Assembly (NCBI RefSeq): GCF_006345805.1
Contig: NC_043016.1
Location: forward strand, 20,150,001 to 20,214,000
Origin: Octopus sinensis
Lineage: Eukaryota
DNA: 64,000 nt
Direction: 5' to 3'
Shown here: piece after piece, positions 1,611 through 58,450 of the stretch
How the letters are laid out: the number at the start of each line of letters is the position of its first letter
How positions within the stretch are numbered: the stretch's first letter is position 1
The notes under the pieces: generated by a model
Told to the model about the DNA's origin: nothing
Seen by the model: the letters and a program-made list of their open reading frames with translations, nothing else
Databases searched by the model: none
Translations under genes and position numbers: made by a program

Positions 1611-1871
1611 GAGGAATTCAATTTCCTCATTGGCTGTCACAGAAACCATGGGTTGTGACTTGCAGAAACATGTTCCTTTCTCTTAACCCAATTGAATTTG
1701 TAAGACCTAGTGACTTATGTTTATAAAATTTATAAAAAGTTTTTAAAAACAGGAAGAAGCAGACTCCACTGAACCTTAACAAAATAGCTTCTTGACCTCA
1801 AAATTAATCTGGATCTAAGAAAGGAAATAAAAACCTGTAGTGAGACGAGAAGAATTTATGTCTTTGCTTAA

Positions 1872-15269: not shown

Positions 15270-16070
15270 CCTCACCAACCATAAATGCCAGAAAACAAAA
15301 CTGCTTGTTGCATCTAGAGCAAGTATCAATGAGGAAAGATAAGACAACATAGGTCAGGATACATCAAAGAGTGAACCAGAAAACCGTTGAAGATGTCGGC
15401 AATGCAAGAGTCAAACTATACATGTGCAGGAAATGCAAAGTTCCTATGCATGTCAAGCGTGCCTCTATCACAGAATGCAGTCTTAGTGAAGTTTTGGGAA
15501 GAAGTCCTGTGAATCATCTTACATTACATAATAACAGAAAAGAAAAAGGTTAGATTTAGACAGAATGTATATTTTAATGTTTTGTGATATTGTATTATGC
15601 TGTATTACAATGATAATTATAGTTTCAAAGTAAAATCTTCATAAAGGTTTCAATCAGTTCTATAGTTTGTTTAGTTTAATTATTATTTCAAATACTCGGT
15701 CATTCTCATCTAATCTCAATGTTAGCTTTAATTTTCACTAATCCAAATATTTTTCCTAGAAATAGAAAGAATGAGTGTAAAATGCTTCAATTTTATTTGA
15801 ATTAGTAAACATTTTTGATGTAAGATGTTTTGTATAATGATACATTATGTTACCTGTGGCCCACCGTTGCACTAACAAAACATGTACTAGGGCTTGTGTG
15901 CTCACTGTTGCATTAATGTAACACACAAATTTGTAATAACTTCTTACCTGTTAAATAAATTAGGAAAAATAATCAAGTAGTATGTATTAAACATAATTGT
16001 CTACCATATATGTAAAATATAACTGATTCCTAAGACTTCATTGTTTTGTTTTTTATAAGCACATACGGGT
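15270..16070 (+). mobile_element. piggyBac/PGBD-like transposon 3' remnant
   Basis: Across frameshifts it reads R*DNIGQ...RCRQCKSQT-YMCRKCKVPMHVK, the Cys/His-rich C-terminal domain of piggyBac-type transposases. Sub-terminal repeats (CAC.GTTGCA.TAA) lie at ~15862 and ~15903, and the putative end CATACGGG|TGAA at ~16062-16073 would be a degenerate GGG-TTAA. Confidence 0.6.
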
Positions 16071-17513: not shown

Positions 17514-17939
17514 TTAAAGTGGAAATTGAGCAAGAAAAACAGAATTTGTAGCGTGGTAATTGCTAATTGTCTAGCAGACCAAGGAGCCAAATTTACCATA
17601 AAAATAAAAATGTAATCTCACTTGTCCTCAAAAAAGATACAGATTTAACAAAGAAAATAAAAACATTTTTCCATATTAGTGAAATGGCAACTTCAAAGTG
17701 GGCTGAGAATGAACCTAAGATCCACAAGATGGATTTGCACAAACAAAACAATTCAAACATTATTCTTTAAAGTTCCAACTGAAGAAAGAAAGACTCTCAG
17801 GTGTAGTATTTGCTAATAATCTAGTACAATAGGGAAGTCAATTTGGCCTCATGAAGAACCCAGATCTAAGACAGAAAATAAGAGCATTTCCCAGAGTCAA
17901 AGAGGATTGCTCATTTCATACAACATTGACTAAAAACTA

Positions 17940-18380
17940 AGCATTTGGAGCAGGCATCTTTGCTTTGTAAGTGCTGCAGAAGTGGCCGTCCACTGTGCCA
18001 AAGTCGAAAGAGGTTGGTCCCTTCATGACATGAACAGTCACAGATTGAAGCTTTCAGATTTGAAGGGGTCAACTGTGTAGACACGTCCAATTCTGTCACC
18101 TTTGTACAAGGCTGAATCGAACCTCGTAGAACGGCCTTGTTTTCACTGTTGCCACTGGGAAGATGATTGATTCCATGTATAATAATGTGGCACTTCAGTG
18201 TACAAAATAGACTTTGCAAAGGAGTCAAGTTTGCATGGGTGAAAGAAGGCTGTGAGAGTGGTCTTTGGCAGAGCAGCTGCTTGTTCAATGAGGTTGTCTT
18301 GTGCAAAGTACTTTCACTGTCTATTTCCAACTGAACGCCAAGAGTTCAACAAAAGTTTGGAATCTATTTTGTTGATGTAA
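17940..18380 (-). mobile_element. Helitron Rep/helicase fragment
   Basis: A minus frame reads PKTTLTAFFHPCKLDSFAKSILYTEVPHYYTWNQSSSQWQQ*KQG...IGRVYTVDP. This matches the Helitron RepHel segment TTLTAFF..C....A..LLY.EVP.YY.W....W..RK.G...GRVYTVHP. Confidence 0.85.
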
Positions 18381-23714: not shown

Positions 23715-23993
23715 AGCCAGTGCCGCCTCAACTGGCTTCCGTGTAGGTGATACGTAAAATGCACCAATCCGACCGTGGCCGATGCCAGCCTTGCCTGGCT
23801 CCAGTGCAGGTGGCACGTAAAAAGCACCCACTACACTCACGGAGTGGTTGGCGTTAGGAAGGGCATCCAGCTGTAGAAACATTGCCAGATAAGACCGGAG
23901 CCTGGTGCAGCCTTCTGGCTTCCCAGATCCCCGGTCGAACTGTCCAACTCATGCTAGCATGGAGAACGGATGTTAAACGATGATGATGATGAT
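23715..23993 (+). mobile_element. RTE-type 3'-end fragment with (GAT)n tail
   Basis: GTGGCACGTAAAAAGCACCCACTACACTC..GGAGTGGTTGGCGTTAGGAAGGGCATCCAGCTGTAG...GATGATGAT, same as 2480-2665. Confidence 0.75.
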
Positions 23994-24128
23994 TAGGAAG
24001 GGTACCCAGCTGTAGAAACCATGTCAAATACTGCTATTGGAACATGATGCAGTTACTTCAATCTGCTGAATCCAGTCAAAGTGTGCAACACATGTCAGCA
24101 TAGAACTAGATATGCATATGATACAACA

Positions 24129-24300: not shown

Positions 24301-25839
24301 TGCTTGTGCCTCTCCGAAAGAGAGAGAGAGACTAATCTGTCACCATTCTATGGCCATCATACACATACATACTGAGAAGCAACCATGTTTGAGAAAGAGA
24401 AACAGAATGTTGCTTCTTTGTTGGTATTATCACTATAATTAAGAAATTAAATCGTTTTTTGCTTTGAAGGTTTGAAAGCACCCCTACTCAAGTAGTTCAA
24501 GAAATAATTCATCTCCACACAATGAAAAGATAAATTTCATACTTAAAATATCAAAACAAATCAAGGTTTAAAAAAAAAACCAAAAAAAAAAACCTTGTAT
24601 TTTAAACAGAACTCTAAGTTTATATATCTGCAGTTGTTAATTAGATTTGACTTTCTCATTATGGGCATATACCTGTAACCAGTTTGATAACATTTTCCAT
24701 GGGCCCTCAGACGACTACCTATCTGATTTACTTCATTTTTTTGGTGACAAAGCACACAATTTGGTCAATATTTACATCAACAGAAGCTTCACCGTTATGC
24801 AGTAATCTAAAAATGAATTTTCAGCTCAAGCAGTAGATTAGCATAACTTTAAAAGATAAAAGACAAGTCCTCCACCTCTGATATCATTGGAACTGTATAT
24901 GTATCCCAGCATCCCATGTTGGTTTCCCAGGAATATTTCTGGACTCTCTATCATGCAGAGCTTCAACATACAGCAGTTTTCTGGCATTATGTTTCAATCA
25001 CTATAATCTCAAAATTGTAGACTATTTTACCTCGGAGACCACCATTCACTTTTAATCAGTGCAGATGTTCAAAGACTTAATGTTGTATGTTCCAAAATAT
25101 TTCTTGGTTTGCGCTGATGATGCTTTCTGCAAACTAATTCTCACTAATCACTTTAGAAACCTCCTTGTGTACTAAAATCACACAATCTTTGTGTACCAAA
25201 ATCACACAATCTCTTGTAATTGAGAAACATAACCAAAAGCCAAGATCCTTAAATCTGGCTCATGTGGCAGTTTTTTTTTCCCCATTATTTGACAGCAACA
25301 GCTGTCTCCTGTAGGCTTTCCTTGTTTTATTCTTTTAATTTTTTTTACAAGATTACCATCATTCATGAAATATGGCCTCACAAAATGTTACCATATGCAT
25401 GAATTTCTTTCAACAGTTTTGGTACTGTGTTTTCATTGACTTTTGGATGAATTCCCCTATATCAATCTCTTCCTTCTACTCAATAAGACAGATGACAAGA
25501 CTAACTCAGCATATATGGTATACCGAGACAACCTGCCTTTTTCAATATTTCAGTGTACTGATGTATAACATACATCTTAAACCCTTCTGGTGAAATCTGT
25601 CTTCATTTGTTGATAAAATGACTTATCTGCATACAAGTATAGCAAGAATCATTACAGATACATAGCATGCCAAAGTTTTAAATTCCTGTCTGACCAAATT
25701 TAATTCTCTAACATCTCAAATGCAACTGAAACCTTTGAAATTCTTGAGGTCATCTACATATGGTAGAATGTGTTTTTATAAATCATTAAATTTTCTTTAT
25801 TTTCCGGCATGAATTTACATTCTTATTTGGTGCTATTAG

Positions 25840-26145
25840 GGTTGGAAGAATTGATGGAATGGTTGGCAAGAGCAAATGGAGTGAGGTGGTATGGACATGT
25901 GTTGAGGAGGGATGAAGAGCATGTTCTGAGGAAAGTGATTGCATTTGATTGCGAAAGTGAGATAGACTGAGGAAAAGATGGGGGGGGGACAGGTGGAGGA
26001 GGAGATTGGGAGGGCTGGTTTGAAAAAGGATGCCAACAACTGGGCGAGGTGATGTGAGGGCAGTTGCTATGGCACTGAGGTAGATCTGGCCACCCTTGTT
26101 AATGGGGACAAACCCCAGATTTAAAACACTGGATGATGGTGATGT
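25840..26145 (+). mobile_element. RTE-clade LINE 3' fragment in an Hv intron
   Basis: RANGVRWYGHVLRRDEEHVLRKV (RTE C-terminal RWxGHVxR motif) followed by a GATGATGGTGATG tail. Confidence 0.75.
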
Positions 26146-26186
26146 ATTAAGGTTTTTTTTTTTAACAAATGTAAAATAAAACTTAC

Positions 26187-26685
26187 CATTCAGGATTCTT
26201 GTCATTCTCCATAATCTAAGCACAATTAAAAGACCCACACCATTCTCAGGTCCGTCATGCTGTCTGAATACAATATCCAATACAAACGAAGCTATAACGA
26301 CAACTGCATCAAACATTTCCATCTTATGCCTGAAGAAGTCAAGTCTCAATGCATATAACCGAAGAGCAATTTCCAGCAAGAATATGCCCAAAATAGCTAA
26401 GCTAGCATAGCGCAAGATGAAAGCAACAGCCATTTTGTCATAATCATGTACCTGAAGTATTTGAAGGTCTAGCAGAAGTTCAGAAATTACCAGTAGACAA
26501 TCAAGAAAGACAAGGCAGATAATTCCAATTTGGAATATATTGGTGTTAATCAAGTGGATGACCCGTTCACGGATTGTGCGGAATTCTTGTTTGGTTTCAT
26601 CAGAATCCGTAGTGACTGAACTGTTGGAATCTTCCTTCTCGATAACCTTCTCCAAGTCATCATGGAGTTTATGGAACCCTTCCAT
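26187..26685 (-). CDS. HVCN1: Voltage-gated proton channel Hv1, main coding exon (N-terminus and S1-S4)
   Basis: S1 FQIGIICLVFLDCLLVISELLLDL carries the selectivity Asp (D62, human D112). S2 has F102/E105, S3 is FFRHKMEMFDAVVV, and S4 LRLWRMTRILN is the Hv signature RxWRxxR..N. The acceptor TTTAG lies just upstream (exon starts 26691) and the donor G|GTAAGT is at 26187/26186. Spliced CDS is 499+584 nt = 360 aa plus stop. Confidence 0.95.
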
Positions 26686-27027
26686 CTTGACCTAAATTTA
26701 AAAAATAGCATATTTAAATATACTAAATAAGAAATAAAGAAAGTTATAAAAAAAAATCTACATAAAATCTGCACAATGTTGACAAGGTCAGAGAGATCAA
26801 ATTCGTCCCCTTTTCTGCAAACACACTATCCTTCCCCTAATCATGTAAATTAACTTGAAAAATTTATCGATTCCTAGAAATTATCTCCCCCTTCTCATAA
26901 GATTCAAATATCTGCTGCTAGGATTTTGCCTGTAGCATTCAGTATACCATTCCTTCATTTTACAATGCTTTATATTTCACTTCATACTTTTGTCGTGAAA
27001 TCCTATCAATGTTGCTTTTGTCTTTAA

Positions 27028-27245: not shown

Positions 27246-27269
27246 ATAATCCTCTGGAATTAAATTACA

Positions 27270-27595
27270 CAGGCGCAGGAGTGGCTGTGTGACAAGTAGC
27301 TTGCTTACCAGCCACATGGCTCCAGGTTCAGTCCCACTACATGGCACCTTGGGCAAGTGGCTTTTACTATAGCCTTGAGCTGACCAAAGCCTTGTGAGTG
27401 GATTTGGCAGGCGGAAATTGAAAGAAACCCATCGTGTATATATGTGTGTTTACGTCCCTGTAACTTAGCTGTTCGGCAAAACAGACCACTAGAATAAGTA
27501 CTAGGCTTACAAGGAATAAATCCTGGGGTCAGTTTGCTCGACTAAAGGCAGTGCTCCAGCATGGCTGCAGTCAAATGACAAAAGGATAAAAGAAT
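27270..27595 (+). mobile_element. Near full-length tRNA-derived SINE
   Basis: GGCGCAGGAGTGGCTGTGTG head, GGTTCAGTCCC B-box, CCTTGGGCAAGTG core and an A-rich tail; same family as 55865-56272. Confidence 0.85.
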
Positions 27596-27807
27596 AGAAT
27601 CTGCTTTTAATACTAATTGTTCAAATTTGCAGCCAACTAAAGTTTGAAGCTCAAAAGCATTCCAACTATGTATGACCATCTCAACTTATTCAAGTCACTG
27701 CCTGGAATCAAACTTGGAATCTTGAGGTTAGTAGCTTGTGCTCAACCACTACACCATATGCCTGTGGGCAATTATGGAGTGAATTTTAGGGCTTATAAAT
27801 CTAATAT

Positions 27808-32511: not shown

Positions 32512-32728
32512 TAAGGCGGTGAGCTGGCAGAATCGTTAGCACGCCGGGCAAAATGCTTAGCGTATTTCGTCTGCCTTTACGTTCTGAGTTCAAATTCTGC
32601 CGAGGTCGACTTTGCCTTTCATCCTTTCGGGGTTGATAAATTAAGTACCTGTTACACACTGGGGTCGATGTAATCGACTTAATACCTATGTCTGTCTTTG
32701 TTTGTCCCCTTGTGGGTAATAAAGAAAT
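32512..32728 (+). mobile_element. Full-length tRNA-derived SINE (AAGGCGGCGAGCTGGCAGAA head, Tx1-like tail A)
   Basis: B-box-like GAGTTCAAATTC, tail ...CCCCTTGTGGGTAATAAAGAAAT, and TSD AGGTATTA(C/A)TGCTA at 32497-32510 and 32729-32742. Confidence 0.9.
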
Positions 32729-34132
32729 AGGTATTAATGCTAGTATTCCATAGATAACACTGGTGTGTGGTATTTCTACAAAACCTGTGTGACCACACAG
32801 AAGTCCTCTTAAGAGAATAAAGAGGAAAAAAAAAGTTACAAATTTCCATTTGAAATAACCATACATACATTATATTTAACAGAAAATATTTTTGTTACAC
32901 ACTGACTGGACAGATGTATTACTTGAAGCTTTTGACAAAAAAGAGGATATAGCATCACAATGTGTAGGACAACTGGAGGTTTCTGCAGGACAATCTGTTG
33001 AGGACTACAAGCCAGATCTGTGGCTGGTGCAAAGTCCCCTCTTGACCTAAGGTGACATGATGGAACAATGTAGTTGGCAGGGCCATTGGGGAAAAGAAAA
33101 TGTTCAGTTTGAATGATTGAAAGGATGAAAATACACACATATATATATATATATATGAGGAGGCAGATTAAGTCAAATGCTCAGTACAAAAAGTATGATA
33201 TGCAAGAATAGTGGCAGTAGTTGTAAGCAGAATCAAGTGTGTTAGTTTGAAGTGTAAAAAGCTATCTAGTTCCTTTCTCTACCATCAAATACTCTCTTCA
33301 TAATCCTTTATAAGCAAAAGGATATGCGCCAACAAAGAAACCTCGATACCTCGACACTAGGAAGAAAATTCATTTAGAATATACTTTCATTGTTTGATAT
33401 TCCTTTTTCTATGCCAGCAGGAATTGGATGGTTTTTCTGAATGTTTTATAGTTGGATTGTCACGGATGATAGCTTTCTAGCTAAGAAGGAAAACCATTGG
33501 GGAAGAACGAGTTCTAATATATGCTACTTTTGCCTGTAGACAGGCTCCCACACTTTCCATTAACCAAGATTTACATAGGTCCTTGATTAACTCAAGACTA
33601 TGGCAGAAAGCACTTGTCCCATCTGATAAGCAATGGAATCAAACATGAAGCTACTTGGTTGGGACATGAACCACAACTCAAACTACTCAGCAATGCTGTC
33701 ACTGAAACAAAGTCAAACTAGTAAAAGATTTCCATGTCTTTACAGCAGTGGCTGCCATCATTCTACAGGCAGTATATCGTATTTGAGTCCATGTTTTAGT
33801 TCCCAGTTACCATTTCACATCAGTCAAGGTTTAAGAAAAACAACATTTCTCTCACAACTATAAATGAAATATATGAGCAACAAGATGCTCTCTCTCAGTA
33901 GTCATCAAGCCTGCTGGGAAAAAACAGCCGAATTATACCCTGTCTAAATAACAGATGTATTGGTCAAAATAACTAATAAACAGAAGGTTAGAACAGTGAA
34001 AGATGGATTGGTCAATTAAATCAATCTCAGTATTTTATTTTGCTGACCTTGAAAAGCAGCTACTGGAACATGATAAAGTCTTCAGACAGGTTGGATCTTG
34101 TCAAACCTTCCAACCAGTGCAAACATAAAATA

Positions 34133-36315: not shown

Positions 36316-36534
36316 AGTGGCGAGCTGGCAGAACCGTTAGCATGCCAGGCGAAATGCATAGCTGTATTTCGTCTGCCGTTACGTTCTGAGTTCAAATTCC
36401 ACTGAGGTCGACTTTGCCTTTCATCCTTTCAGGGTTGATTCAGTACCAGTTATGCACTGGGGTCGATGTAATCGACTTAATCCGTTTGTTCTTGTTTGTC
36501 CCCTCTCTGTTTAGCCCCTTGTGGGTAAAGAAAC
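36316..36534 (+). mobile_element. Full-length tRNA-derived SINE (tail A)
   Basis: Same family as 32512-32728; TSD AATTTGATATATTTAT at 36300-36315 and 36535-36550. Confidence 0.9.
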
Positions 36535-36689
36535 AATTTGATATATTTATGGTAGAGGTGGTACAGGTAGTGAGTAAAAACACAAAGGATAGTCAAGCTG
36601 GAAGTATATGTCAGCTATCCAAATCTACAGTTTATACTGTCATTGATAGTACACTTGGTACTTAAGAATGAGGGACCAGCTACCTGACT

Positions 36690-38560
36690 CAACATTCCTT
36701 GGTAGATAAAACAATTAAGGATATGAAGACAGGGAAAGCCCCAGCCCATCAGGAATCACTGCTGAGATACTGAAAACATCTGGCAGCGTGGGTTATGGTC
36801 TAATCACCTGTATTATAAATCAGGTGGTTCATGAAAGAGTCATACCCAATGACTGGTGGAGCAATACCATAGTCAACTGCTACAAAGGTAAAGGTGATGC
36901 CATAGAAAGAAATAATTACAGAAGTATCAAGTTGTTGGATCAGGTGATGAGAGTCCAACTAACTAGGGAGAGAGTTAGCCTAGATGAGATGCATGGAGAA
37001 GCACCACTGATGCTATATTTCTGGTAAGGCAGTTGCAAGAGAAATACATAGCTAAAGATAAATCTCTGTAGTTGGCCTTTGTTGACATGGAGAAAAGCCT
37101 TTGACAGGGTCCCCCAATCCCTTTTCTGGTAGTCAATGCAGGAACTAGGGATAGATAAGTGGTTGGTGAGAGCTGTACAAGTCGTGTACAGGGACGCTAT
37201 CAGTAAGGTGAGGATTGGCAATGAGTACAGTGAAGAATTCAGGGTACAAGTCAGGGTTCACCAAGGATTGGTGCTCAGCCCCTTTTTATTAGTCATAGTC
37301 CTCCAGGCAATAACAGAGGAATTTAAGAAGGCTCCTCTATGCTGATGACCTTGCTCTTATAGTCAAGTCACTACCAGAACTAGAAGTTCCAGGTATGGAA
37401 GCAAGGTCTAGAATTGAAGTCTTAAGAAGGAAGGCAGACAAATCACAAATTCCTTCAGATAGAGGGCCCTGCTTGATCTGTGGAAAAGGAGTAGGTAGAA
37501 ACTCCATAAGATGCAGCCAATTACAGCAATATCAGAGGAAGAGTAACAGGGAAACTAGCTGTTGTATGTGGAAGATGCACATGTACAATAAATGCTGAAA
37601 ATGTGCAGAAAACAGACTGCATCAACTGCCAGTGGGGCAAGCTAGAGATAGTAGATAGCTTCTGTTATACAGGTGATCAAGTTAGTAGTAGAAATGGACG
37701 CTCTGAGAGCATAGCTGTGAGAAAATTAGGTTGGACAAAAGAACTACCTCTGCTGGCAACAAAGAGCCTCTCTCCCCAGAGTGAAAGGTAGATTGTATGA
37801 TGCCTGTGTGCGAACAGCTATGTTACATGGCAGTGAAATATGGGCTGTGACAGCTAGGGACATACATAGGCTCTGAGAAATGAAGCCAGTATGCTTTGTT
37901 GGATGTGCAATGCCAATGTGCATGTTCGACAGAGTGCAAGCATCTTGAGAGAAAAGTTAGACATAAGAGGCATCAGATGTGGTGTGCAAGAGAGACGACT
38001 GTGCTGGTATGGTCATGTGATGTGTATGGACAAGGACAGCTGTGTCAAGAAGTACCAATCTGCAACTGTGGAGGGAACCTATGGTAGGGGTACACCCAAG
38101 AAAACATGGGACAAAATGGTGAAGCACTTCAAACTGAGCTTCACAAAGGCAATGACTAGTGACCAAGACCTTTGGTTATATGCTGTGCTTGAGAAGACTT
38201 GTCAAGTGAAATCCTAGTCATGGCTGATGTAGGTGTCACATAACTTGCACATGTGCAGGTGGCACGTAAAGAGCATCTATCGAGTGTTGGGCCTCATGGA
38301 GGTAATGACCGAGACCTTTGGCATTGTTATGCTTGAGAAGACTCAAATCAAGTAAAATCGCAGTCAGGACAAATAGTGGTGTCACGTAAATGGTACCTGT
38401 ACTGGTGGTATGTAAAAACATCCATTACACTCTCAGAGCAGTTGGCACCAGGAAGGGCATCCAGCCATAGAAAACCATGCCAAATGAGACTGGAGTCTGG
38501 TGCAGCCTTCCAGCTCTGGTCGAACTGTCAACCCATGCCACAATGGACAATTAAATGAAG
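36690..38560 (+). mobile_element. Decayed 5'-truncated RTE-clade LINE
   Basis: RT motifs IPNDWWSNTIVNCYKGKGDAIERNNYRSIKLL, AFVD.EKAFDRV, VHQGLVLSPFLL, LYADDL, RRLCWYGHVM and GRGTPKKTW, with many frameshifts, followed by the RTE-type 3' UTR. Confidence 0.9.
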
Positions 38561-39729: not shown

Positions 39730-39959
39730 TAAGGTGGTGAGCTGGCAGAACCATTAGCATGCCGGGCGAAATGCGTAGCCGTATTTCATCTGCTGTTATG
39801 TTCTGAGTTCAAATTCTGCCGAGGTCGACTTTGCCTTTCATCCTTTCGGGGTCGATAAATTAAATACCAGTTACGCACTGGGGTCGATGTAATCGACTTA
39901 ATCTGCCTGTCCTTGTTTGTCCTCTCTATGTTTAGCCCCTTATGGGTAATAAAGAAACA
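39730..39959 (+). mobile_element. Full-length tRNA-derived SINE (tail A)
   Basis: Same family; perfect TSD GATATTAAAACATG at 39716-39729 and 39960-39973. Confidence 0.9.
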
Positions 39960-46302: not shown

Positions 46303-46456
46303 ATTCCTTTCTACTCTAGGCACAAGGCCTGAAATTTCGGGGAGGTGCCAGTCGATTAGATCAACCCCAGCATGCAACTGGTACTTAATTTATCGACCCC
46401 AAAAGGAAGAAAGGCAAAGTCGACCTCGGCGGAATTTGAGCTCACAACGAAATACC
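46303..46456 (-). mobile_element. 3' part of the host SINE (tail B), separated from its head at 52136-52183
   Basis: SINE body ending in ...CCCCGAAATTTCAGGCCTTGTGCCTAGAGTAGAAAGGAATAT. The outer TSD TTA(T/G)ATGGTTGGAT is at 46289-46302 and 52184-52197. Confidence 0.85.
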
Positions 46457-46824
46457 AATTTCTTTATTACCCACAAGGGGCTAAACACAGAGGGGACAAA
46501 CAAGGACAGACATAGGTATTAAGTCGATTACAATGACTCCAGTGCGTAACTGGTACTTAATTTATCGACCCCGAAAGGATGAAAGGCAAAGTCGACCTCG
46601 GCGGAATTTGAACTCACAACGTAACGACAGACGAAATACCAATTTCTTTATTACCCACAAGGGGCTAAACACAGAGAGGACAAACAAGGACAGACAAACG
46701 GATTAAGCCGATTATATTGACCCCAGTGCGTAACTGGTACTTATTTAATCGACCCCGAAAGGATGAAAGGCAAAGTCGACCTCGGCGGAATTTGAACTCA
46801 CAACGTAACGACAGACGAAATACC
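46457..46824 (-). mobile_element. Two tandem 184-bp headless SINE copies (tail A)
   Basis: Units 46457-46640 and 46641-46824 each run from GGTATTTCGTCTGTCG to ...GTGGGTAATAAAGAAATT on the minus strand. Confidence 0.9.
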
Positions 46825-47073
46825 AATTTCTTTATTGCCCACCGGGGGCCAAACATAGATATGGACAGTACAACTGATGGGATCAGTGAATCGATATGAT
46901 TTTACATAAATGTGACATCAAAAATAAAATACAATACATAAAAATCGAATGGAATACACAGTACAAAAACAATACAAATGAAGCGATGATCAAGTTACGC
47001 TCCGATCCCACAAGCCCCGATCTACCGCTGATACCTTTTTATTTTTCCTTTTTTTTTTTTTTTCCTCGTCTAT

Positions 47074-50000
47074 TCACACGGTTCCTTGCACGCACAACAC
47101 TCGTGCAACATACTTCCATCTCTTTTGGAACGTACACTCTGACAGACACCTCTTCTCCAGCCACAGTTTCCTTTTCAAATGAAAAGAAAAAAGGATCGTA
47201 AATTGTCACCAGAGATAAAGTTGCCTGTCTTAATTCTTTTATCCTAGTATTCCATACAGCCTCTTTTGCTATTGCTACAACCGTGAGAAAACAATTCTTA
47301 CCTTCGTTCGTTAGAACTCCCGGTGGGTCAACAGATGTTCAGCATAAGCCCACATTTCAGTTATCTCCGGACACTGAACAATAGCGTGAGGGACGGTTTC
47401 CCTGTCCCCACCGCATCTTGGACAGGTCGGCGACTGACGTTTACCATGTCTTGCGAGCTTATCCCAAACGGGCAAGGCACCTCTGTAGCATTGCCAGGTT
47501 AAGGACTTTTGGAAGTTGTCCAACGTTCTCAACCCGAATGTACGATGAAACAAGCTGTCCAGTTGAATAAATCCGAGACCTAGAGTCGACCCCAGGCCAT
47601 CGTCGCATTCAGACTCTACCAACCACTATATAAAATCCGTGTGGAACCCCCACCGCTGGCGTTGCCGAGCGCCGGAACAGCAAGAGGGCCTTACGGCACT
47701 CTTTATGCCACTCACTCGACCTCGGTCTACGAGAACACCAGGCTTCCTGTTCGCAAAAACTCTTGAACTCAGGGAACATTTGTCTGGCCAGCGGAGACCA
47801 CACCCGTTCACTATCCAGGAGAATCCAGAGGTGCCTCAACCTCAACGCATGTCTGCGCATCATTAACCAAGGCATCCCTAAACTCCATTTAAAGGCTTTT
47901 GACAGCAGACAGAGCGTTTCACAAGTGGCGACCTGCCCTTCCACAAAAAGCGAAAGAGCTGTCTCTCCAACCTGATCAACCACGAATCCGGACAGGGCAC
48001 GACAGTCAGGCGGTAGGTAATGACCGATGCGATAAACACATTGGCCACTTCCGCCCTCCCTTTCAGGGATAGCCACCGCCAAGACCAAGTCTTGACTACT
48101 GCAGCCACCCTGCTCAATACCTCCGTCCAGTTCTTCTCTATCTGGAGGCCTGGTCCAAACCAGACTCCCAGCAACTTAACCGGTCCCTCCGTCCAGCGCC
48201 TAACAACACTGTCTGAAGGCATCGACTTGCCAACCCAGGTGCCGAGCTGCAAGCCGACCGACTTTTCCCGGTTAATCTTTGCTCCTGCTACCTCCTCGTA
48301 AGCCTCAATAGTCTTACCTACTTCACGTAGGCGTACCACTGTGGTTACACTGATAGTGATATCATCCGCGAAAGCCGTAACAAACTCCTCTAGTCCTGGT
48401 TCTCTCGGGATGTCACTCAACCTTTGCAGTAATGGCTCGAGAGCCATCACATACAAAAGTGGTGAAAGCGGACATCCTTGACGAACCGAGCGTCTGATGC
48501 AGAACGGCTTCGAAAGGAAACCGTTCACCCGAACTATCGAGTCAATGTTGTGGTACAAAGCGATAAACCACCTGAGGAAGCCAAGGCCCAGGCCAAACCG
48601 CGCAAGTACAGTCGCTAGGTATCGATGGTCAACCCTATCAAAAGCTTTAGACTGGTCCAAATGCACCAATGCCCCACCTTTGCCAGATTTATTACCAAAC
48701 CTCTCTATGGTATAGCGAATAAGATGGAGGGTATCCTGAATGGTTCTGCCTGGGATGGCACATGTCTGTGCCTCCCCGACTATACCATTCGCGACACGCG
48801 CCAACCTTTTTGCTAGAACCTTGGCCAAAATCTTCACTTCTGCGTTTAACAGAGTGATGGGCCTGAAATTCTCTAGAACGTCCCCCTTGTCCGGGTCCTT
48901 TCTGACCAACGTCACTACTCCCCGGCGCACAGATCTGGGGATAAACCCATTCTGTTTCCAGTTCGCGTACACGTCAGTCAGTAGTTGCCCGAACAAGTCT
49001 GGCATACATTTATACAGCTCGTACGGAAGACCATCAAGTCCCGGTGACTTACCCGCTTTACAATCGGCCAAAGCCTCCATCACCTCCTCAAGTGTGATTG
49101 GCCCTTCGCAAGACTCCGCATCCGACCCCGAGAGGCACGGCAGCCCGGTAAAAAGTCCTCGAGGGCTCTCCCACCACCAGGACCACCGTCACCCCCGAAC
49201 AGCTGGGCGAAGTACTCCCGAAAGACCTCACACATTTTCTCGGGTTCGTTTATCAAGACACCATTTTGATTCGTCAAAGACCGAATAGAGGAACTATTTC
49301 CTTGCCGAGCTTCCACCACTCGGGCCCATCCAGCGGCTTTGATTCCTTCACTTCCCATTGCACGTAACTTAGCTCTGGTAATACTTCCCATGTGGTGGGC
49401 TTCAAGATGCTGGTTTAACTCCAGTCTTTTCACCCTCGCTTGGTCTGTATTACCAGTCCTCCAGGCTTCTTCTAGTTCCTTAACTAGACCATCTCCTATT
49501 TTACGTCCCTTCTTAGCTAAACTTATGCTAACCTAATAGACTCATATTTGATGGCTCTTTTTAGGGCGTACCACCATTTGTTATTAATGATGGTACCTGT
49601 TAATGCCCTCTGTATTAACATCTTGATCCGCTTTCTGTACTCCTCAATCGCCAAAAGGGACGTATTGAGTTTCCAGTAGCCAGATCCCTGTCTATGCAAC
49701 TTATCTACCGTCAGTTTACAGGTAACCATCTTGTGGTCACTGTAGCTGACTAGAAAAAACTGTGGACACTCAACTATGGACTTATCTTTTTCTCTAATTA
49801 AAATCCTATCTAGATATGTTCTGGTAGACCCGTCACTATTGACCACGTCCACTGTGGAGTGTTCGGGTGCTCCAACCTATATGGATCTGCTAGCTGAAAT
49901 TGACTTAGCAGATCCCGAAAGCCTGTGTTACATTTTCTGTTCATGTTCGAGTTTGAGCCAACACAATCTGTGTGTGCTGCACATATTGTATTAGAGTCTC

Positions 50001-50417
50001 CTAACACTACTAGTGAATGCGACGTGGCTAGGAACTTTCCTAGGCCACAAAAATATTCAGTTTGCGGGCCAATAATGTTTGGTGCATAAATAGCGACCAG
50101 CCTGATTGTCTTGCCACAACTGAATGTCAAGTCGAGAACGACCAGCCTGCCTTCTGGGTCAGAAAAAACCAACTTTTTCTCGGCTACCCGGTTTCTTTTT
50201 AGTAGGACCAACACCCCACCCCCACCTCCCGCCCGACTCGGAGAAACGTATTTCTCGTAGCCGTTCAGGAGGGGAGCAGATCTCTTGGCCCCTTCACCCG
50301 GGTTTCCGTTGCAACAATTACATCCAGATTTCTCGACCTGATGTCATTCAGAAAGCGTCCTTGCTTCCAGCTTGACAACAGGCCATGAACATTTAAACAA
50401 CCAATGTGAATAGCCAT
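47074..50417 (-). pseudogene. LINE ORF2: AP endonuclease, reverse transcriptase and C-terminal CCHC (frameshifted as assembled)
   Basis: Starts MAIHIGCLNVHGL...DVIVATET. APE motifs: AIYAPN, VLGDSN, YLDRIL, YSDHKMV, GYWKLN. RT motifs: GKSPGLDGLP, NFRPITLLN, LDQSKAFDRVDH, SVRQGCPLSPLLY, AFADD. Zinc finger CPRCGGDRETVPHAIVQC; stop at 47076-47074. At least 6 frame changes. Confidence 0.9.
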
Positions 50418-50428
50418 CACTTACCTGT

Positions 50429-51955
50429 TTAATTAGGATTGTCCGGTGGAGGGGGACCCTCCACCTTTTTTTTATCCAGGGTCGGAGGTGGACGGTCTTG
50501 GGAAATAGATTTGTCAAAATCCCGTCTCACCACCGACACAGAATTATCAGGTGGAGGGGGAATCTCCACCTTTTCCTTTTCTCGCGGGATCGGAGCTGGT
50601 AATCCATGAAATATCGACTTGTTAAAATCTAATCTCAATGAAGATACAGTCTTTCTGTACTTATTTTGTAGAATTCTATAAGTCTTATTTGAGACTTCAT
50701 ATATGTCGTAATTGATAAATTCCTCTGAAAGGTTATCAATTTTTTTACAGTCTTTATGAGTTGAATGTCTCTCATGAGCTCAGTATCTTTAGTGTATACG
50801 GCTATTATGCCTTTTTCTTCTTTTTCTCTTCTGGCAGTCTTTTTTGGTCGTTGTTCTGTAGTAGTCGCCGCTCTCGGCTGGGTTGCTGGTTGTATTTTTC
50901 TTTTGTTTGTTGTTTTTTTTCTCATCTGTTTCTTCTTTATCTTCTTCCTCTTTGTCTTTTTTCTCCTCTTCCTCCTCTTCTTCATTTTCCTTGCAGTTCC
51001 TTCGAATGTGGCCTAATTGACCACATAAAAAACATCGAGGTTTTCGGCCCTCAACAAACACCACGAGGTTCTCCTCCCCTACCTCAATTGTCTCAGGAAT
51101 TGTTTGAATTATTTTAGGGTCCGCTTGAATGAGAAGATTAATTGTTTTACCATCCCAGCGTGGGTTTTCCGTAGCGGTAGCCTGGAGGAGAGTAATTTTT
51201 TCTACCTCTTTGATTAGGACTGCCGCCAACAACCACATAGGTTCGACCTCTGGCGGGACCCTTGTAATTTTTATTCGCGACGTCCTCATCCCCATATAAT
51301 AGGGTATTAACTCCACGTCGTTCGTTTTCAACGTTTCCACTGAGTTCTTGTGTGCTATTTCTTTATTGGTGAACCTTACTTCCACCGTTCCGAATTTTTT
51401 TCCTCTCTCAAAATACTACGTCGCCCAATATTGGCTTTAAGCACTTTTCTATTTTCTCTTCTGACATTCTTTCAATTTTTCTATTTTGTAGACATATGTT
51501 TTGAAAATTATTGTTTTTTGCTTTTCTTCCTGTAATAACTTTTGCGGAGGTTCAATTTTCACACTGTTGTCATTTATTTCCATCATTTTGCTGTATTTCA
51601 TAATTTCGCTTTTATTCGTCGACAGTATCTGGGTTCCACCCCCAGCAGCCAACGCAAAACTTTTTTTTCCATTTTTTGGTTCTATCTGGATGCTAGGCAC
51701 ATCAATTATTCTCTTCGACACAATGCCTTTGTTCTCTGGCAAAGTCGGAAACTCTTCTGGTGAAAGTTCTGACGAGCTCTCAGACACATCTCCAAAAATA
51801 TCAAATATATTATCCTCTCTGCTATTCCTTCTTGTAGCGGGGGAAACCCCTATTTCCTTGTCTGTAGTTGGCTCCTCGCCGGACATGTATTTCCTCCTCT
51901 CAACAGGAGAAACAAGTATTTCTGCTCCAACGGTAGGCTCCATGCTAGACGACAT
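50429..51955 (-). pseudogene. LINE ORF1: gag-like nucleic-acid-binding protein (frameshifted as assembled)
   Basis: Zinc knuckle VEGRKPRCFLCGQLGHIRRNC (CX2CX4HX4C) is typical of Tx1 ORF1. It also has an acidic/basic low-complexity tract and a duplicated Pro-rich C-terminus. First ATG at 51955, stop at 50431-50429. Confidence 0.85.
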
Positions 51956-52135
51956 TCTTCCCCCCAAAGGGGGAATGAACAACGCGTGCTACCACAAGCA
52001 CTAAGTGTTTTCAATTGAAAACTCCAACAGTTAAGTTATTCAACAGTTTAACAAGAAACAACAGTTGTTAACAATATTAACACCACGAAACAGCAATTCT
52101 TACTTCACGAACACATGTGCGACAGACGAAATACC

Positions 52136-52183
52136 GCTACGCACTCCACCCGGCATGCTAACGTTTCTGCCAGCTTGCCGCCT
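52136..52183 (-). mobile_element. 5' tRNA-like head of the interrupted host SINE
   Basis: The minus strand reads AGGCGGCAAGCTGGCAGAAACGTTAGCATGCCGGGTGGAGTGCGTAGC, continuing directly into the TSD GGTATTTCGTCTGTCG as in intact copies. Confidence 0.9.
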
Positions 52184-52629
52184 TTAGATGGTTGGATCTT
52201 GCCAAATGTAACTTAGTTCACCAATTATGGCAAGATTTTGCTAGGTGCTTGAATATTTGTTGTTCCCATATAAAATCCCAAGTTACCATCTTAACTTTCC
52301 AATGAATCTGTTGATCCAGCATTGAAAGTCATTAGTGATTATTAGGTGTGGTGGTGGTGGTGGTGAGGTTGTGTGCCAATGTTGCTGGATTATGTTGTTG
52401 AGCAGAAAAATTCTTGTAATTACTTCATAACATTGAGCAAACATTTGAACATGGTTTATTGTGCTGTTTTAGTATGAAAAGATGTCCGTGTATTGCAATT
52501 AATATACAGAAGCAGTAAGGTGGGAACTACTTTTAATATTCTAGCATTCTGTACCTGCATTCGTCATTCTGTCGTTTCTTGTACTGTACTTTTCTAGGTT
52601 CAAATAACTTAACAATATTCTAGGATTCT

Positions 52630-52960
52630 GTACTCTTTTACTCTTTTAGTTGTTTCAATCATTTGGCTGTGGCCATGCTGGAGCACCGCCTTTAGTCGAG
52701 CAAATCGACCCCCAGGACTTATTCTTTATAAACCTAGTACTTATTCTATCGGGTTTTTTTTTGCCGAACCGCTAAGTTACAGGGATGTAAACACAACAGC
52801 ATCAGTTGTCAAGCGATGTTGGGGGGGGGGGACAAATACACACACACACATATATGTGTGTGATGGGATTCTTTCAGTTTCCATCTACCAAATGCACTCA
52901 CAAGGCTTTGGTCGGCCGAGGCTATAATAGAAGACACTTGCCCAAGGTGCCATGCAGTCT
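52630..52960 (-). mobile_element. tRNA-derived SINE, 5'-truncated
   Basis: High similarity to 55865-56272. Confidence 0.8.
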
Positions 52961-53769: not shown

Positions 53770-54184
53770 GAGCACCATACGAGTGAGATCATTGCCAGAG
53801 CAACAAGCTGGCCTTTGTGCCGATGGCACATTAAACACACCATTCAAGTATGATCGTTACCTGCGTCGCCTTACTAGCACTTGTGCTGGTGGCATGTGAA
53901 ATATTCGATCGAGGTCATCGCCAGTGCCGCTGGACTGGCCCCTGTGCAGGGGGATCATAAAAAGCACCATTTGGGCGTGGCCGTTGCCAGTACCACCAAA
54001 CTGGCCCTCGTGCCGGTGGCACATAAAAGCACCCACTACAGTCTCGGAGTGGTTGGCATTAGGAAGGGCATCCAGCTGTAGAAACTCTGCCAGATCAGAT
54101 TGGAGTTTGGTACACCAGACCTCAGTCAAATCGCCCAACCCATGCTAGCATGCAAAGCAGATGTTAAATGATGATGATGATGAT
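53770..54184 (+). mobile_element. RTE-type 3' UTR fragment with (GAT)n tail
   Basis: GTGCCGGTGGCACATAAAAGCACCCACTACA...GGAAGGGCATCCAGCTGTAG...GATGATGAT. Confidence 0.75.
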
Positions 54185-54479
54185 TAAAGCCATACTATTT
54201 CTTTTGTAATTCTTTTTAATAGAGTTTCCATCAGAAGATTCTTTTCAATGAGCACATTCTTTTAAACCCAATTAATGTATAGTTTTTTTTTTAAATAACA
54301 GAGATATTTTAATATTTAAAGTTGATTTTTTGCATTACTCTCCCATTTTTGACCTCCCTTTTTTTATGAACCAAATTTCAATCATTTTACCTCCAAATGT
54401 AGTGTGGGACTGGACCATCACTGCTAAAAAAACCGTCTTTGATTTGGTTGAGAATGGAATTAGTGGTGAAGCCTAGAAG

Positions 54480-54880: not shown

Positions 54881-55239
54881 TTTTATTCATTGGAGACAAA
54901 ACATTCCTTTTTAACTTGTTAATCAAGGGCTTTGCACTAATCAGTTCTCTCTTGTCACATCTGACATAAACTGACCCCTCTGCATCACGTATGACTTGTA
55001 CCAGAAACCCTCAAGCATAACTCTTCTGATGCAGTACTCTGAAACTTTGGGGCCCATTGCAATGGCTCTGATTGACTTACCAGGGTTTTTTATCAGTTAT
55101 TTCTAGGGCATTTTGTATACATTTGTGTGTTCTGATGCTATTCGAATGCTGTGCATGTATTTCATGTTTAGCTGCTGATGTTGGATCCCTATCAGCAGCT
55201 TCTAGCCCCTTTCAAACTTTGACAATGAAAGATCATATT

Positions 55240-55540
55240 CTTTGTAAGCCTAGTACTTATTCTATCAGTCTCTTTTGCCAAAACGCTAAGTTACGGGGGA
55301 CGTAGAGACACTAACATCTGTTGTCAAGTGATGGTGTGGGGGACAAACACACACAAACATATACAAACATGTACATACACACGCGCGCACACACATACAC
55401 AACAGGCTTCTTCCAGATTCCATCTACCAAATCCACTTACAAGGCTTTGGTGGGAGACACTTGCCCAAGGTGCCATGCAGTGGGACTGAATCTGGAACCA
55501 TGTGGTTGGTAAGCAAGCTACTTACCACACAGCCACTCCT
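55240..55540 (-). mobile_element. tRNA-derived SINE
   Basis: Head AGGAGTGGCTGTGTGGTAAGTAGCTTGC on the minus strand; same family as 55865-56272. Confidence 0.8.
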
Positions 55541-55864
55541 AAACATATTTTAAAATTATTTTGTCTAGCCCCAACTTTCAGCATGTCTGAAACTTTAATA
55601 TTGGTTTGGAATTCTGGCATAAGGCCTGCAAATTCAGGGTTTGGGTAAGTTGATTACACCGATTCCATTGTCCGCAATACATACGACAAAAACAAATGAA
55701 GAGCTTCCTTTTATTTTAAGTCTAGCAAGTTGTAACATTTGTAGAACTTAGTACAGGGCAAGAAAAAATGAAATGAAATGAAATAATTTCAAACAGGAAC
55801 CAAAAGCGAGTTGCAGAATTCACTTGGTGAAGAACATGAATTCAAAAACTTCAATAAAGGACTA

Positions 55865-56273
55865 CTCTCTTTTTACTCTTTTACTTGTTTCAGTCATTTG
55901 ACTGCGGCCATGCTGGAGCACCGCCTTTAGTCGAGCAAATCGACCCCGGGACTTATTCTTTGTAAGCCCAGTACTTATTCTATCGGTCTCTTTTGCTGAA
56001 CCGCTAAGTGACGGGGACGTAAACACACCAGCATCGGTTGTCAAGCAATGCTAGGGGGGGACAAACACAGACACACAAACACACACACACATATATATAT
56101 ATATATACATATATATGACAGGCTTCTTTCAGTTTCCGTCTACCAAATCCACTCACAAGGCATTGGTCGGCCCGGGGCTATAGCAGAAGACACTTGCCCA
56201 AGATGCCCCGCAGTGGGACTGAACCCAGAACCATGTGGCTGGTTAGCAAGCTACTTACCACACAGCCACTCCT
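55865..56273 (-). mobile_element. Near full-length, well-preserved tRNA-derived SINE
   Basis: Head GGAGTGGCTGTGTGGTAAG, GGGTTCAGTCCC, internal (TA)n(TG)n, and an (AGTAAAAG)n-like tail. Confidence 0.85.
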
Positions 56274-56959
56274 GATTTAAAAAAAAAATATCTTTTATCC
56301 ATTTTATTTATTTGTTTGTTAGTCCAGCTGTTAGGTTTTGAATCACTGCAAGAACTTATTCAAGATACACAATTTGGGTTTTTCCTTTTTTTCTTTTTAC
56401 ATGCATATCATTAAATGTCGTTAGGGCATGGAATCTTAGCTATGTTCTGTCAATTAGTGACTTTAAAAATATTCAATTACTTTTCCTATTGAGTGGCGTG
56501 CTGCTTTTTTTTGTTTTTCAAGAGAAATTCCTGGCATTTCCCCCATTCACCTATACTATATATCTCATATTTCTTCTGTTTTTTTTTTATATGTATGTGT
56601 GTGGTGTTAACGTCACTATCATATTAAACATTGTCAAGGGATGGTTTTCCCCCAAACTATTTGTGTCAATCAACACTCCCATAACACCATACAATTTTTC
56701 AAGTCAGACATAACTGGCACTATTCTATTATTCTTTTATTGATAAATTTACCTTGTAGGCCTCTTTGTAATTAAATACTCAGTATAAATCTAGAACTTTT
56801 TTTTTATAAACAATGTTATACATTTTTCCAGATGGAACTTAAGCAAAAATGATATCTAACTATGCCTTGTAAAAGATGAACTTTAATCCCAAGATTTATT
56901 AACAAACATAAAAAAATTGAGTTTTACTGAAAACTACCACTCTTTGAATATGAAAGGTA

Positions 56960-58244: not shown

Positions 58245-58450
58245 TTGGTTTCAAATTTTGGCACAAGGCCAGCAAATTTGGGGTAGGCAGTAAGTTGATT
58301 ACATTGACTCCAGTGCTTCACTGGTACTTATATTATTGACTTAAGTGCTAGACTAGTACTTTGGAATTTGATCTTAGAATGTAAGGATAGATGAAAAGCC
58401 ACTAAGCATTTTTACTTGGCATGCTAACACCTTTGCCAGCTCGCCACCTT
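58245..58450 (-). mobile_element. Older tRNA-derived SINE (AAGGTGGCGAGCTGGCA head, tail B)
   Basis: Same head as the tail-A SINEs but ending ...AAATTTGCTGGCCTTGTGCCAAAATTTGAAACCAATATT. Confidence 0.7.

What the first reader, a model, noticed from the sequence alone, without database searches (positions are those of the whole stretch)
46825..46900. SINE tail is homologous to the 3' end of the Tx1-type LINE: a candidate SINE-LINE partner pair
Seen: the LINE terminus (element strand) is ...ATCGATTCACTGATCCCATC...TGTCCATATCTATGTTTGGCCCCCGGTGGGCAATAAAGAAATT. SINE tail A is ...ATCGACTTAATCCGTTTG...TGTCCCCTCTATGTTTAGCCCCTTGTGGGTAATAAAGAAAT. Both contain a (G)CCC..GTGGG stem-loop before AATAAAGAAAT and lack a poly(A) run. 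Known: shared 3' ends mark stringent SINE/LINE pairs, usually with L2/CR1/RTE partners, whereas mammalian L1 recognises poly(A). A stringent-type tail shared with a Tx1/L1-group element would be unusual.
Basis: partly seen in the sequence, partly recalled or inferred. Interest (0 to 1): 0.75.

Follow-up and report, generated by a model that had tools for sequence, protein, structure and literature searches.

The report
Octopus SINE shares Tx1-group LINE tail
A short parasitic repeat and a long Tx1-like retrotransposon in an octopus-type genome end in the same small RNA hairpin and land at the same kind of site, which suggests the short one borrows the long one's enzyme through a specific tail rather than a poly(A) tail.

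Summary
Real, and stronger than reported. The last ~42 nt of a young, full-length L1/Tx1-group LINE (52119-46825, minus) are 81-83% identical to SINE tail A (0 of 10,000 shuffles), fold into the same hairpin and lack poly(A). The upstream ATCGA similarity is not significant. The LINE sits inside a copy of that SINE, between its A and B boxes, with a perfect 16-bp target-site duplication, ahead of two head-less tail-A units. All six SINE/LINE insertions tested have ~16-bp duplications; tail-A copies and the LINE share a G(G/A)TAT start. Intact relatives (49-51% protein identity, 39 loci) end in a poly(A)-less hairpin that matches this SINE's second tail (B), though not tail A by sequence. Best reading: stringent-type SINE-LINE partnership in a cephalopod Tx1-group lineage, with shared target choice and self-nesting. 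Limits: one copy of this LINE family, unresolved tree backbone, no mammalian L1 row, no assay. Known precedents: plant/algal L1 pairs; SINEU/Tx1-Mar (shared target, poly(A), no shared tail). New variant.

The parts
46825..52119 (-). Full-length two-ORF non-LTR retrotransposon of the L1/Tx1 group, 5.3 kb, inactivated by frameshifts
   Evidence: Bounded by 16/16 duplication; domains; relatives
50429..51955 (-). ORF1, about 500 codons, short off-frame stretches, one CCHC zinc knuckle
   Evidence: Three-frame translation; PF00098 E 4e-5; 29-30% to ORF1 of relatives L011/L001
47040..50417 (-). ORF2: APE endonuclease, reverse transcriptase, C-terminal zinc finger; in pieces in about eight frame segments
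   Evidence: RVT_1 E 4e-30, zf-RVT E 3e-9, Exo_endo_phos weak E 0.04; frame map
46826..46867 (-). LINE 3' terminal block shared with SINE tail A; hairpin 46859-46829 with inner stem-loop 46849-46837; no poly(A)
52120..52135 (-). 5' copy of the LINE's 16-bp target-site duplication (GGTATTTCGTCTGTCG), inside the SINE head
46809..46824 (-). 3' copy of the 16-bp duplication; also the first 16 nt of SINE unit u1
52136..52184 (-). 5' part of the host SINE's head with an A-box-like motif (about 52172-52162), cut off from its B box by the LINE
   Evidence: 84-85% to heads of intact copies; box assignment is from recalled Pol III consensus; ARAGORN and Rfam find no tRNA
46641..46824 (-). SINE unit u1: head-less, B-box-like motif (about 46799-46787), body, tail A
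46457..46640 (-). SINE unit u2: head-less, tail A of a different subvariant (94.6% to u1)
46306..46456 (-). SINE unit u3: 3' part of the host SINE, ending in tail B (hairpin 46329-46319), which matches 3' ends of related LINEs
   Evidence: top window hit of a relatives-only profile, E 5e-4
52185..52200 (-). Outer 16-bp duplication of the whole SINE nest, 5' copy (partner 46305-46290; 14/16 match)
32514..32729 (+). Dispersed full-length tail-A SINE (internal tail deletion); 16-17-bp duplication with GGTATT at its start
36319..36535 (+). Dispersed full-length tail-A SINE; duplication of 16-22 bp containing GATATA, start ambiguous
39732..39959 (+). Dispersed full-length tail-A SINE; 16-bp duplication starting GATATT
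58247..58450 (-). Older dispersed SINE of the same head and body with a tail-B variant (B1); 16-bp duplication starting AATATT
55598..55660 (-). Tail-B1-like remnant with no recognisable head
   Evidence: weak profile hit E 0.49

Best explanation
The LINE is a copy of the family (or a close sister of the family) that mobilises the tail-A SINE. The SINE took its last ~42 nt from the LINE's 3' UTR; ORF2 protein binds the terminal hairpin (4-bp stem, CYNGU loop, extended lower stem) instead of a poly(A) tail, nicks DNA at a short preferred motif (G(G/A)TAT(T/A)) and primes reverse transcription there, leaving ~16-bp duplications. Because that motif also lies in the SINE's own head between the A and B boxes, SINE copies are targets: this locus is a tail-B SINE into which tail-A units and then the LINE entered at one site. 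Tail B came the same way from a sister LINE lineage. Shown: tail identity, shared fold, nesting, duplications, hairpin ends of relatives. Inferred: protein recognition of the hairpin, direction LINE to SINE, whether target choice comes from the endonuclease or from RNA-DNA pairing, and the order of events.
For: Tail 81-83% over 42 nt, 0 of 10,000 shuffles, inside the 35-61 bp and 72-95% range reported for bivalve SINE-LINE pairs (PMC11481361 section 13). Same fold in LINE, u1, u2 and the 39.9k copy; 4 of 5 LINE-versus-u1 differences in the 31-nt hairpin are unpaired (p 0.017) and the fifth is G-C to G-U. The LINE copy is young: no in-frame stop in the 1308-nt RT frame (P 0.055 at 5% decay, 0.003 at 10%), yet 5 diagnostic substitutions and 1 indel in the tail (P 0.001 at 3% decay). 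Duplications of 16 bp (range 16-22 as scored) at 6 of 6 insertions tested; G(G/A)TAT(T/A) lies in the first 8 nt of the duplication in the LINE and 3 of 3 dispersed tail-A copies, background 0.0009 per position; both tail-B insertions start AA(T/G)AT. Intact relatives at 49-51% identity (39 loci): hairpin motif 590-700 nt after the ORF2 stop in 28 of 33 ORF ends by a strict pattern; of the 5 misses 3 carry a loop variant, 1 has a premature stop with the motif further on, and 1 is an unrelated poly(A) element; 0 of 45 motif-selected junctions have poly(A). A profile built from relatives only ranks the window's three tail-B copies 1st, 2nd and 4th (15.9, 11.6, 6.3 bits; best in 20 shuffled windows 7.9). 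Across 16 tails 62 of 64 stem cells pair, with GC/CG swaps at two positions. These relatives and the window LINE form one clade, 100/100.
Against: Only one copy of this LINE family was available, so the tail could be particular to this copy. The relatives-only profile does not detect tail A or the window LINE's tail, and a covariance model gave nothing significant: homology of hairpin A to hairpin B rests on position, loop motif and stem swap, and the 12 'both-side' cells reflect about three events. Fold stability is not above shuffles for the LINE tail; the tail-B unit u3 and relatives L001 and L017 have a different minimum-energy fold. Units u1, u2 and u3 share a base outside the duplication that 4 of 4 dispersed copies lack, which fits local duplication or conversion better than three separate insertions. 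The target motif was defined after seeing the data and rests on 4 sites. The poly(A)-ending 5S- and U2-inserted elements show that Tx1-group members often differ.
Confidence: 0.75

Rival explanations
1. The 42-nt block is a SINE-derived piece on this copy only: a 5'-truncated tail-A SINE next to the LINE, or a template switch in which reverse transcription began on SINE RNA and moved to LINE RNA.
For: The block abuts a SINE array in which tail-A units end at the very same junction; template switching is documented for non-LTR elements (PMC4494074); only one LINE copy is in hand; relatives' tails do not match tail A by sequence.
Against: The block is 81-83% to SINE copies that are 90-98% to each other, on a LINE with little substitution decay; differences keep the fold; no duplication separates the block from the 3' UTR; even a template switch would need the LINE protein to prime on the SINE tail.
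Confidence: 0.12
2. The tail is homologous but this LINE is only a cousin of the true partner: tail A came from another, older or extinct family of the same lineage, and the co-location reflects a shared target motif.
For: 17-19% tail divergence; at least three tail types (A, B1, B2) on one SINE body point to several donor families; Octopus vulgaris has 80 L1-Tx1 consensus families (PMC13282606 supplement row).
Against: Same junction, duplication length and target start as tail-A copies; the divergence is ordinary for accepted pairs.
Confidence: 0.25
3. The head-less units u1 and u2 arose by unequal crossing-over or conversion between SINE copies, and the LINE hit the SINE head by chance because SINEs are abundant; there is no real self-targeting.
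For: Private base shared by u1-u3; tandem SINE multimers attributed to recombination in bivalves (PMC11481361); the 3 dispersed tail-A copies are not inside SINEs.
Against: u1 and u2 differ at tail positions where each matches a different dispersed copy; the LINE's duplication starts at the same base as the units; dispersed tail-A sites carry the same short motif; relatives form head-to-tail arrays with short family-specific spacers, kept even before 5'-truncated units.
Confidence: 0.25
4. The LINE lineage captured its 3' end from the SINE (direction SINE to LINE), so the hairpin is a passenger.
For: The LINE lands in SINE nests, which offers the chance for 3' capture; its 3' UTR (about 215 nt) is much shorter than the relatives' (about 700 nt).
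Against: Relatives carry the hairpin end with no SINE body: no informative match of head or body in the BLAST output seen (output cut at 5000 characters), and their second hairpin varies in sequence while staying paired in 6 of 6 folds, as expected for a selected LINE signal.
Confidence: 0.07

Closest known systems
SINEU / Tx1-Mar of crocodilians (PMC4494074; read parts 1-4 of 5)
   Same: SINE mobilised by a Tx1-group LINE; shared target inside another repeat; tandem copies sandwiching a duplication (16 nt for SINEU-3).
   Different: SINEU has snRNA heads and poly(A) tails, and the paper found no LINE sharing the SINEU-1 3' end; its target is a Mariner element. Here the head is Pol III-like, the tail is shared and structured, poly(A) is absent and the target lies in the SINE itself.
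Maize ZmSINE2/3 with LINE1-1_ZM; Chlamydomonas SINEX-3_CR with L1-1_CR (PMC3747384; passages and Table 1)
   Same: L1-clade LINE sharing a short 3' end (about 45 nt hairpin in maize) with a SINE; read as stringent recognition.
   Different: Plant and algal, the only 3 L1-tail SINEs among 58 pairs in that survey; none is animal or Tx1; the algal pair ends in poly(A); no target specificity reported in the passages read.
Stringent pairs with L2, CR1, CR1-Zenon, Nimb, RTE (eel UnaSINE1/UnaL2; bivalve pairs in PMC11481361 section 13 and PMC4824008 passages)
   Same: Shared 3' tail of similar length and identity; one SINE body with swapped tails.
   Different: Different LINE clades; the text and supplements searched in PMC11481361 hold no 'Tx1'.
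Target-specific Tx1 families Mutsu (5S rRNA), Keno (U2), Dewa (tRNA spacer), Tx1 in Tx1D (PMC3706591 one passage; PMC4494074 introduction)
   Same: APE-RT-zinc finger ORF2, CCHC ORF1, insertion in a multicopy target. Elements found here in 5S (L039, L042) and U2 (L045) score 218-247 bits to the window RT against 142 for human L1 ORF2p.
   Different: Those three loci end in poly(A) and sit in RNA genes; the window lineage has a hairpin end, a short loose motif and its own long branch. The names Mutsu-like and Keno-like are given here by target only.
Octopus tRNA-derived SINEs (OR1/OR2, tRNA-Core, tRNA-Deu; mentioned in passages of PMC4824008, PMC4758252, PMC8967140)
   Same: An abundant octopod SINE with Pol III-like head and conserved body; the SINE itself is very probably already catalogued.
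   Different: Identity with a named family was not established; no partner LINE is given in the passages read.

Membership tests
L1 group of non-LTR retrotransposons | Two ORFs; ORF2 with APE endonuclease, RT and C-terminal zinc finger | tested here: met
   intact relative L011 has Exo_endo_phos, RVT_1, zf-RVT
L1 group of non-LTR retrotransposons | RT closer to L1 than to other clades | tested here: met
   142 bits to L1 ORF2p versus 78 or less to R2; 61 and 20 bits to the distant loci L046, L047. No CR1, L2 or RTE reference was scored.
Tx1 clade | RT phylogeny places it with Tx1, Keno, Mutsu, Kibi, Koshi to the exclusion of L1 proper | tested here: inconclusive
   218-247 bits to 5S- and U2-inserted elements versus 142 to human L1, but one of these itself scores 207 to L1; tree backbone open, support 63/75 for the split from three outsiders, no L1 row and no named Tx1 row
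Tx1 clade | ORF1 with CCHC zinc knuckle | tested here: met
   PF00098 in window ORF1, below cut-off but present in two relatives; Atlas first hits are CCHC proteins, 0.90-0.91. Not exclusive to Tx1 (own knowledge).
Tx1 clade | Target-sequence preference (many members) | tested here: inconclusive
   One LINE site plus three tail-A sites share a short motif; relatives show family-specific spacers; too few independent sites
Tx1 clade | 3' poly(A) tail (typical, recalled; not strictly defining) | tested here: not met
   None in the window LINE or at 45 of 45 junctions of relatives; present in L039, L040, L042, L045
Stringent-type SINE-LINE pair | Shared 3' terminal sequence | tested here: met
Stringent-type SINE-LINE pair | Conserved stem-loop in the shared tail with compensatory change | tested here: inconclusive
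   Same fold and structure-neutral differences between LINE and tail A, but no double change within that pair and no significant stability; double changes appear only between A and B types
Stringent-type SINE-LINE pair | Tail is the family's 3' end in many LINE copies | not testable with these tools
   No eukaryotic genome collection; SINE motif absent from genome contigs, plasmids and phages. Met for sister families only.
Stringent-type SINE-LINE pair | Tail required for retrotransposition in an assay | not testable with these tools
   Bench experiment
tRNA-derived SINE (SINE2) | tRNA-related head with A and B boxes | tested here: inconclusive
   Box-like motifs visible (consensus recalled); ARAGORN 0 genes, no Rfam tRNA match
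tRNA-derived SINE (SINE2) | Short, dispersed, non-coding, flanked by target-site duplications | tested here: met
   Four dispersed copies of about 200-230 nt with 16-bp duplications
CORE / Meta / Deu SINE superfamilies | Central conserved domain | tested here: inconclusive
   Short body motifs absent from supplements searched in PMC4824008 (one file not searched) and PMC11481361; no domain models available

The most novel reading that the evidence does not exclude
A whole cephalopod lineage of Tx1-group LINEs is of the stringent type, with poly(A)-less hairpin ends, and has repeatedly donated tails (A, B1, B2) to one abundant octopus SINE; each tail brings its own target motif, and the tail-A motif lies inside the SINE's own promoter, so the SINE seeds landing sites for itself and for its partner LINE. 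This would be an animal L1-clade case of specific tail recognition and a SINE that is both parasite and safe haven of its LINE.
Probability: 0.4. Interest if true: 0.78.

Novelty: new variant of a known kind. Interest (0 to 1): 0.63.

Why it matters
Whether L1-clade enzymes began as specific tail readers and later relaxed to poly(A) is an open question argued so far from three plant and algal SINEs (PMC3747384). An animal lineage with structured, poly(A)-less ends, intact multi-copy members and natural stem-swapped variants makes it testable by tail-swap assays. It would also name a driver for part of the octopus SINE expansion (SINEs are 11.6% of the O. vulgaris assembly, PMC13282606) and give a mechanism for nested SINE arrays. 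No description of such a pair turned up in nine literature searches, but Repbase and Dfam entries, the 1994 octopus SINE paper and the 2015 octopus genome paper were not available, so prior annotation is not excluded.

Tried and rejected
Upstream ATCGA homology: rejected. Thermodynamic significance of the hairpin: not shown for the LINE. Covariance model from nine relatives' tails with one 4-bp stem: tail-B copies ranked 2, 4 and 10 of 20, none significant, tail A and the LINE tail absent. More copies of the SINE or LINE family: none in plasmids, phages or genome contigs; viral and metagenome contigs stayed unchecked. A second L1/Tx1-like fragment in the window (1013-1650, duplicated at 10561-11202) lacks its 3' end and cannot test the tail. 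A distantly related LINE at about 36.7-38.1k (22-30% identity) and the rest of the window give no match to tail A other than the SINE copies. tRNA or other RNA-gene targets for the close relatives: none in 15 loci by ARAGORN or in 11 of them by Rfam; only L045 lies in U2. Cluster membership and accession names of unnamed hits could not be looked up. PMC85248 and PMC4795812 were not held. NCBIfam gave only sub-threshold group II intron RT matches. Rfam over the window gave only microsatellite-driven miRNA matches below gathering scores.

Full report
Observation. On the minus strand the element's last bases before position 46825 match the end of the neighbouring SINE. The significant block is 46867-46826: 34-35 of 42 columns are identical to each of three SINE copies (81-83%), and none of 10,000 shuffles reaches the score; the SINE copies are 90-98% identical to each other over the same block. 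A shared tail pattern occurs five times in the window and never in 100 shuffled windows. No poly(A) follows either tail. The LINE, units u1 and u2 and the 39.9k copy fold into the same hairpin, a 4-bp stem with a 5-nt loop on a bulged lower stem; stability is not above shuffles for the LINE (z +0.1) and modest for the SINEs; the 36.5k copy has no stable fold.

The LINE. It spans 52119-46825 and has two ORFs: ORF1 with a CCHC knuckle, ORF2 with a weak endonuclease match, RT and a C-terminal zinc finger. ORF2 is in about eight frame segments, but the in-frame aligned segments hold no stop; the stops seen in two long alignments lie beyond frameshifts. The stop-free 1308-nt RT frame makes substitution decay above 5-8% unlikely. 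The best named relatives are from Argonauta (62%) and a cuttlefish (49%), so the host is most likely an octopod (inference). RT scores are 416-443 bits to the closest fetched relatives, 215-247 to five fish-gut and other poly(A)-type loci including those inserted in 5S and U2 genes, 142 to human L1 and 78 or less to R2. In a 37-row tree the window element groups with Argonauta and two unnamed proteins (100/99), and with the cuttlefish protein and fetched relatives (100/100); the backbone is open and holds no L1 or named Tx1 row. L046 and L044 are long branches; L043 and L047 were left out. So: L1 group shown, Tx1 clade likely, not proven.

Directly upstream of the LINE's 5' end lies the first 49 nt of the same SINE's head, and a 16-nt stretch of the head is duplicated perfectly on both sides of the LINE. 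Downstream follow two head-less 184-nt units, each starting at that same base and ending in tail A, and a third unit ending in a different tail (B); the whole nest has its own 16-bp outer duplication, 14/16. All six insertions tested have duplications scored at 16-22 bp, with 16 the common value. The LINE and three of three dispersed tail-A copies have G(G/A)TAT(T/A) within the first 8 nt of the duplication (background 0.0009 per position); the two tail-B insertions start AA(T/G)AT. The motif was defined after inspection and the sample is small. u1 and u2 each share tail variants with a different dispersed copy, which favours separate origins, but u1-u3 also share a base absent from all four dispersed copies, which favours local copying or a subfamily; the origin of the two middle units is therefore not settled.

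Is the tail the LINE's own? The LINE differs from all three SINE copies at five positions plus one indel; at 3% decay six such differences have P about 0.001, at 8% about 0.1. Four of five differences from u1 in the hairpin are unpaired (P 0.017) and the fifth keeps the pair. No second copy of the family could be found. The indirect test came from a protein-based scan of genome contigs, which returned 47 loci, 39 of them intact relatives (49-51% identity) in eukaryotic contigs misfiled in one MAG. They end 590-700 nt after ORF2 in a pyrimidine tract, a 4-bp hairpin with loop CU(U/C/A)GU, a second hairpin and AATAAA: 28 of 33 ORF ends by a strict pattern, the five misses being three loop variants, one premature stop and one unrelated poly(A) element. 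None of 45 motif-selected junctions has poly(A). A profile made from nine of these tails alone ranks the window's three tail-B copies first, second and fourth (E 5e-4, 0.011, 0.49; best shuffled score 7.9 bits against 15.9, 11.6 and 6.3), and the reverse BLAST of the u3 tail hits only the 3' ends. The same profile does not find tail A or the window LINE's tail, and a covariance model added nothing. Aligned by MAFFT, the A and B hairpins share the closing C-G pair and loop pattern with two stem pairs swapped; 62 of 64 cells pair and no shuffle or slid control matches the score, but this is about three evolutionary events. The two B1 copies fold with a bulged lower stem like tail A; u3, L001 and L017 prefer another fold.

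Mechanism. By established knowledge of target-primed reverse transcription, ORF2 protein nicks the target, binds the template's 3' end and primes from the nick. The evidence fits a lineage that reads a terminal hairpin instead of poly(A) and prefers a short motif, giving 16-bp duplications. The SINE body carries tails from at least two members of this lineage; tail A pairs with the window LINE's family or a close sister. The tail-A motif occurs in the SINE head, so SINE copies are targets; an incoming SINE copy can join to the resident head by homology, giving head-less tandem units, while an incoming LINE splits the promoter boxes (inference). Whether the motif is read by the endonuclease or by pairing with read-through RNA is open. 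The relatives' head-to-tail arrays with short family-specific spacers, kept in front of 5'-truncated units, look like the same behaviour in the autonomous elements.

Comparison with the literature. A survey of 58 SINE-LINE pairs lists only three SINEs with L1-clade tails, in maize, sorghum and Chlamydomonas, none animal or Tx1 (PMC3747384; passages and Table 1). Crocodilian SINEU is tied to Tx1-Mar by shared target, ends in poly(A), and no LINE sharing the SINEU-1 end was found (PMC4494074; parts 1-4 of 5). Bivalve pairs involve CR1-Zenon, CR1, L2 and Nimb with 35-61 bp at 72-95% (PMC11481361; passages, sections 13 and 15, supplement search). Octopus papers list L1-Tx1 families and abundant SINEs without naming partners in what I read (PMC13282606 part 1 of 3 and supplement search; PMC8967140, PMC9115989 passages). 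Passages only were seen for PMC4824008, PMC4758252, PMC5786205, PMC3706591 and PMC11203168; PMC3472496 was seen only in search listings. Nine searches found no report of this pair. Repbase, Dfam and two older papers were out of reach, one supplementary file of PMC4824008 was not searched, and figures are not held, so earlier annotation remains possible.

Verdict. The feature is real. It works like a stringent SINE-LINE pair, with an L1/Tx1-group partner, plus shared target choice and nesting in the SINE's own head. Confidence in the partnership reading 0.75; novelty: new variant of a known kind; interest 0.63, rising to about 0.78 if the lineage-wide reading holds.

Noticed in passing
L001-L038, L043 (records CAXXMW010000002-18): 16 contigs filed in a bacterial MAG are eukaryotic DNA made of head-to-tail arrays of intact two-ORF LINEs, about 6.4-6.8 kb period, several subfamilies, separated by short family-specific spacers; their nearest named protein in the tree is a cuttlefish one. 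Arrays of this extent are unexplained (repeat insertion at one target, unequal exchange, or telomere-like arrays).
   Followed up: partly
L011:6555-6575 and equivalents: Relatives carry a second hairpin after the conserved one, whose sequence varies between families while pairing is kept.
   Followed up: partly
L039, L042 (5S rRNA gene), L045 (U2 gene in a U2-U1-5S cluster): Poly(A)-ending Tx1-group elements inserted in RNA genes, again eukaryotic contamination in MAGs; 5S assignment of L039/L042 is by eye, U2/U1/5S of L045 by Rfam.
   Followed up: partly
window 25789-26691 (minus): Exon encoding a voltage-sensing domain (Ion_trans E 2.7e-10) with an RxWRxxR-type S4 segment, by recall a voltage-gated proton channel Hv1; the LINE nest lies about 20 kb upstream on the same strand.
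   Followed up: no
window 1-15274 and 17515-17941: Complex multi-copy segmental duplication, 85-95% identity, units of 1.4-3.2 kb with internal 150-270-nt repeats.
   Followed up: no
window 1013-1650 and 10561-11202 (plus): Decayed fragment of a second L1/Tx1-like family (42-60% to P0001), 3' end lost, carried within the duplication.
   Followed up: partly
window about 36700-38560 (plus); 2400-2665, 11927-12194, 23716-23995, 53920-54186: A decayed LINE of another clade (RTE-like by recalled motifs) and a dispersed repeat ending in (GAT)n with similar terminal sequence: a possible second, conventional SINE-LINE pair.
   Followed up: no
window 52636-52958, 55236-55541, 55871-56274, 27269-27599: Another abundant dispersed short repeat family with an internal (CA/TG)n tract.
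   Followed up: no
window 47040-50417: ORF2 has about seven frameshifts but no in-frame stop in the aligned segments; some indels may be assembly errors rather than decay.
   Followed up: partly
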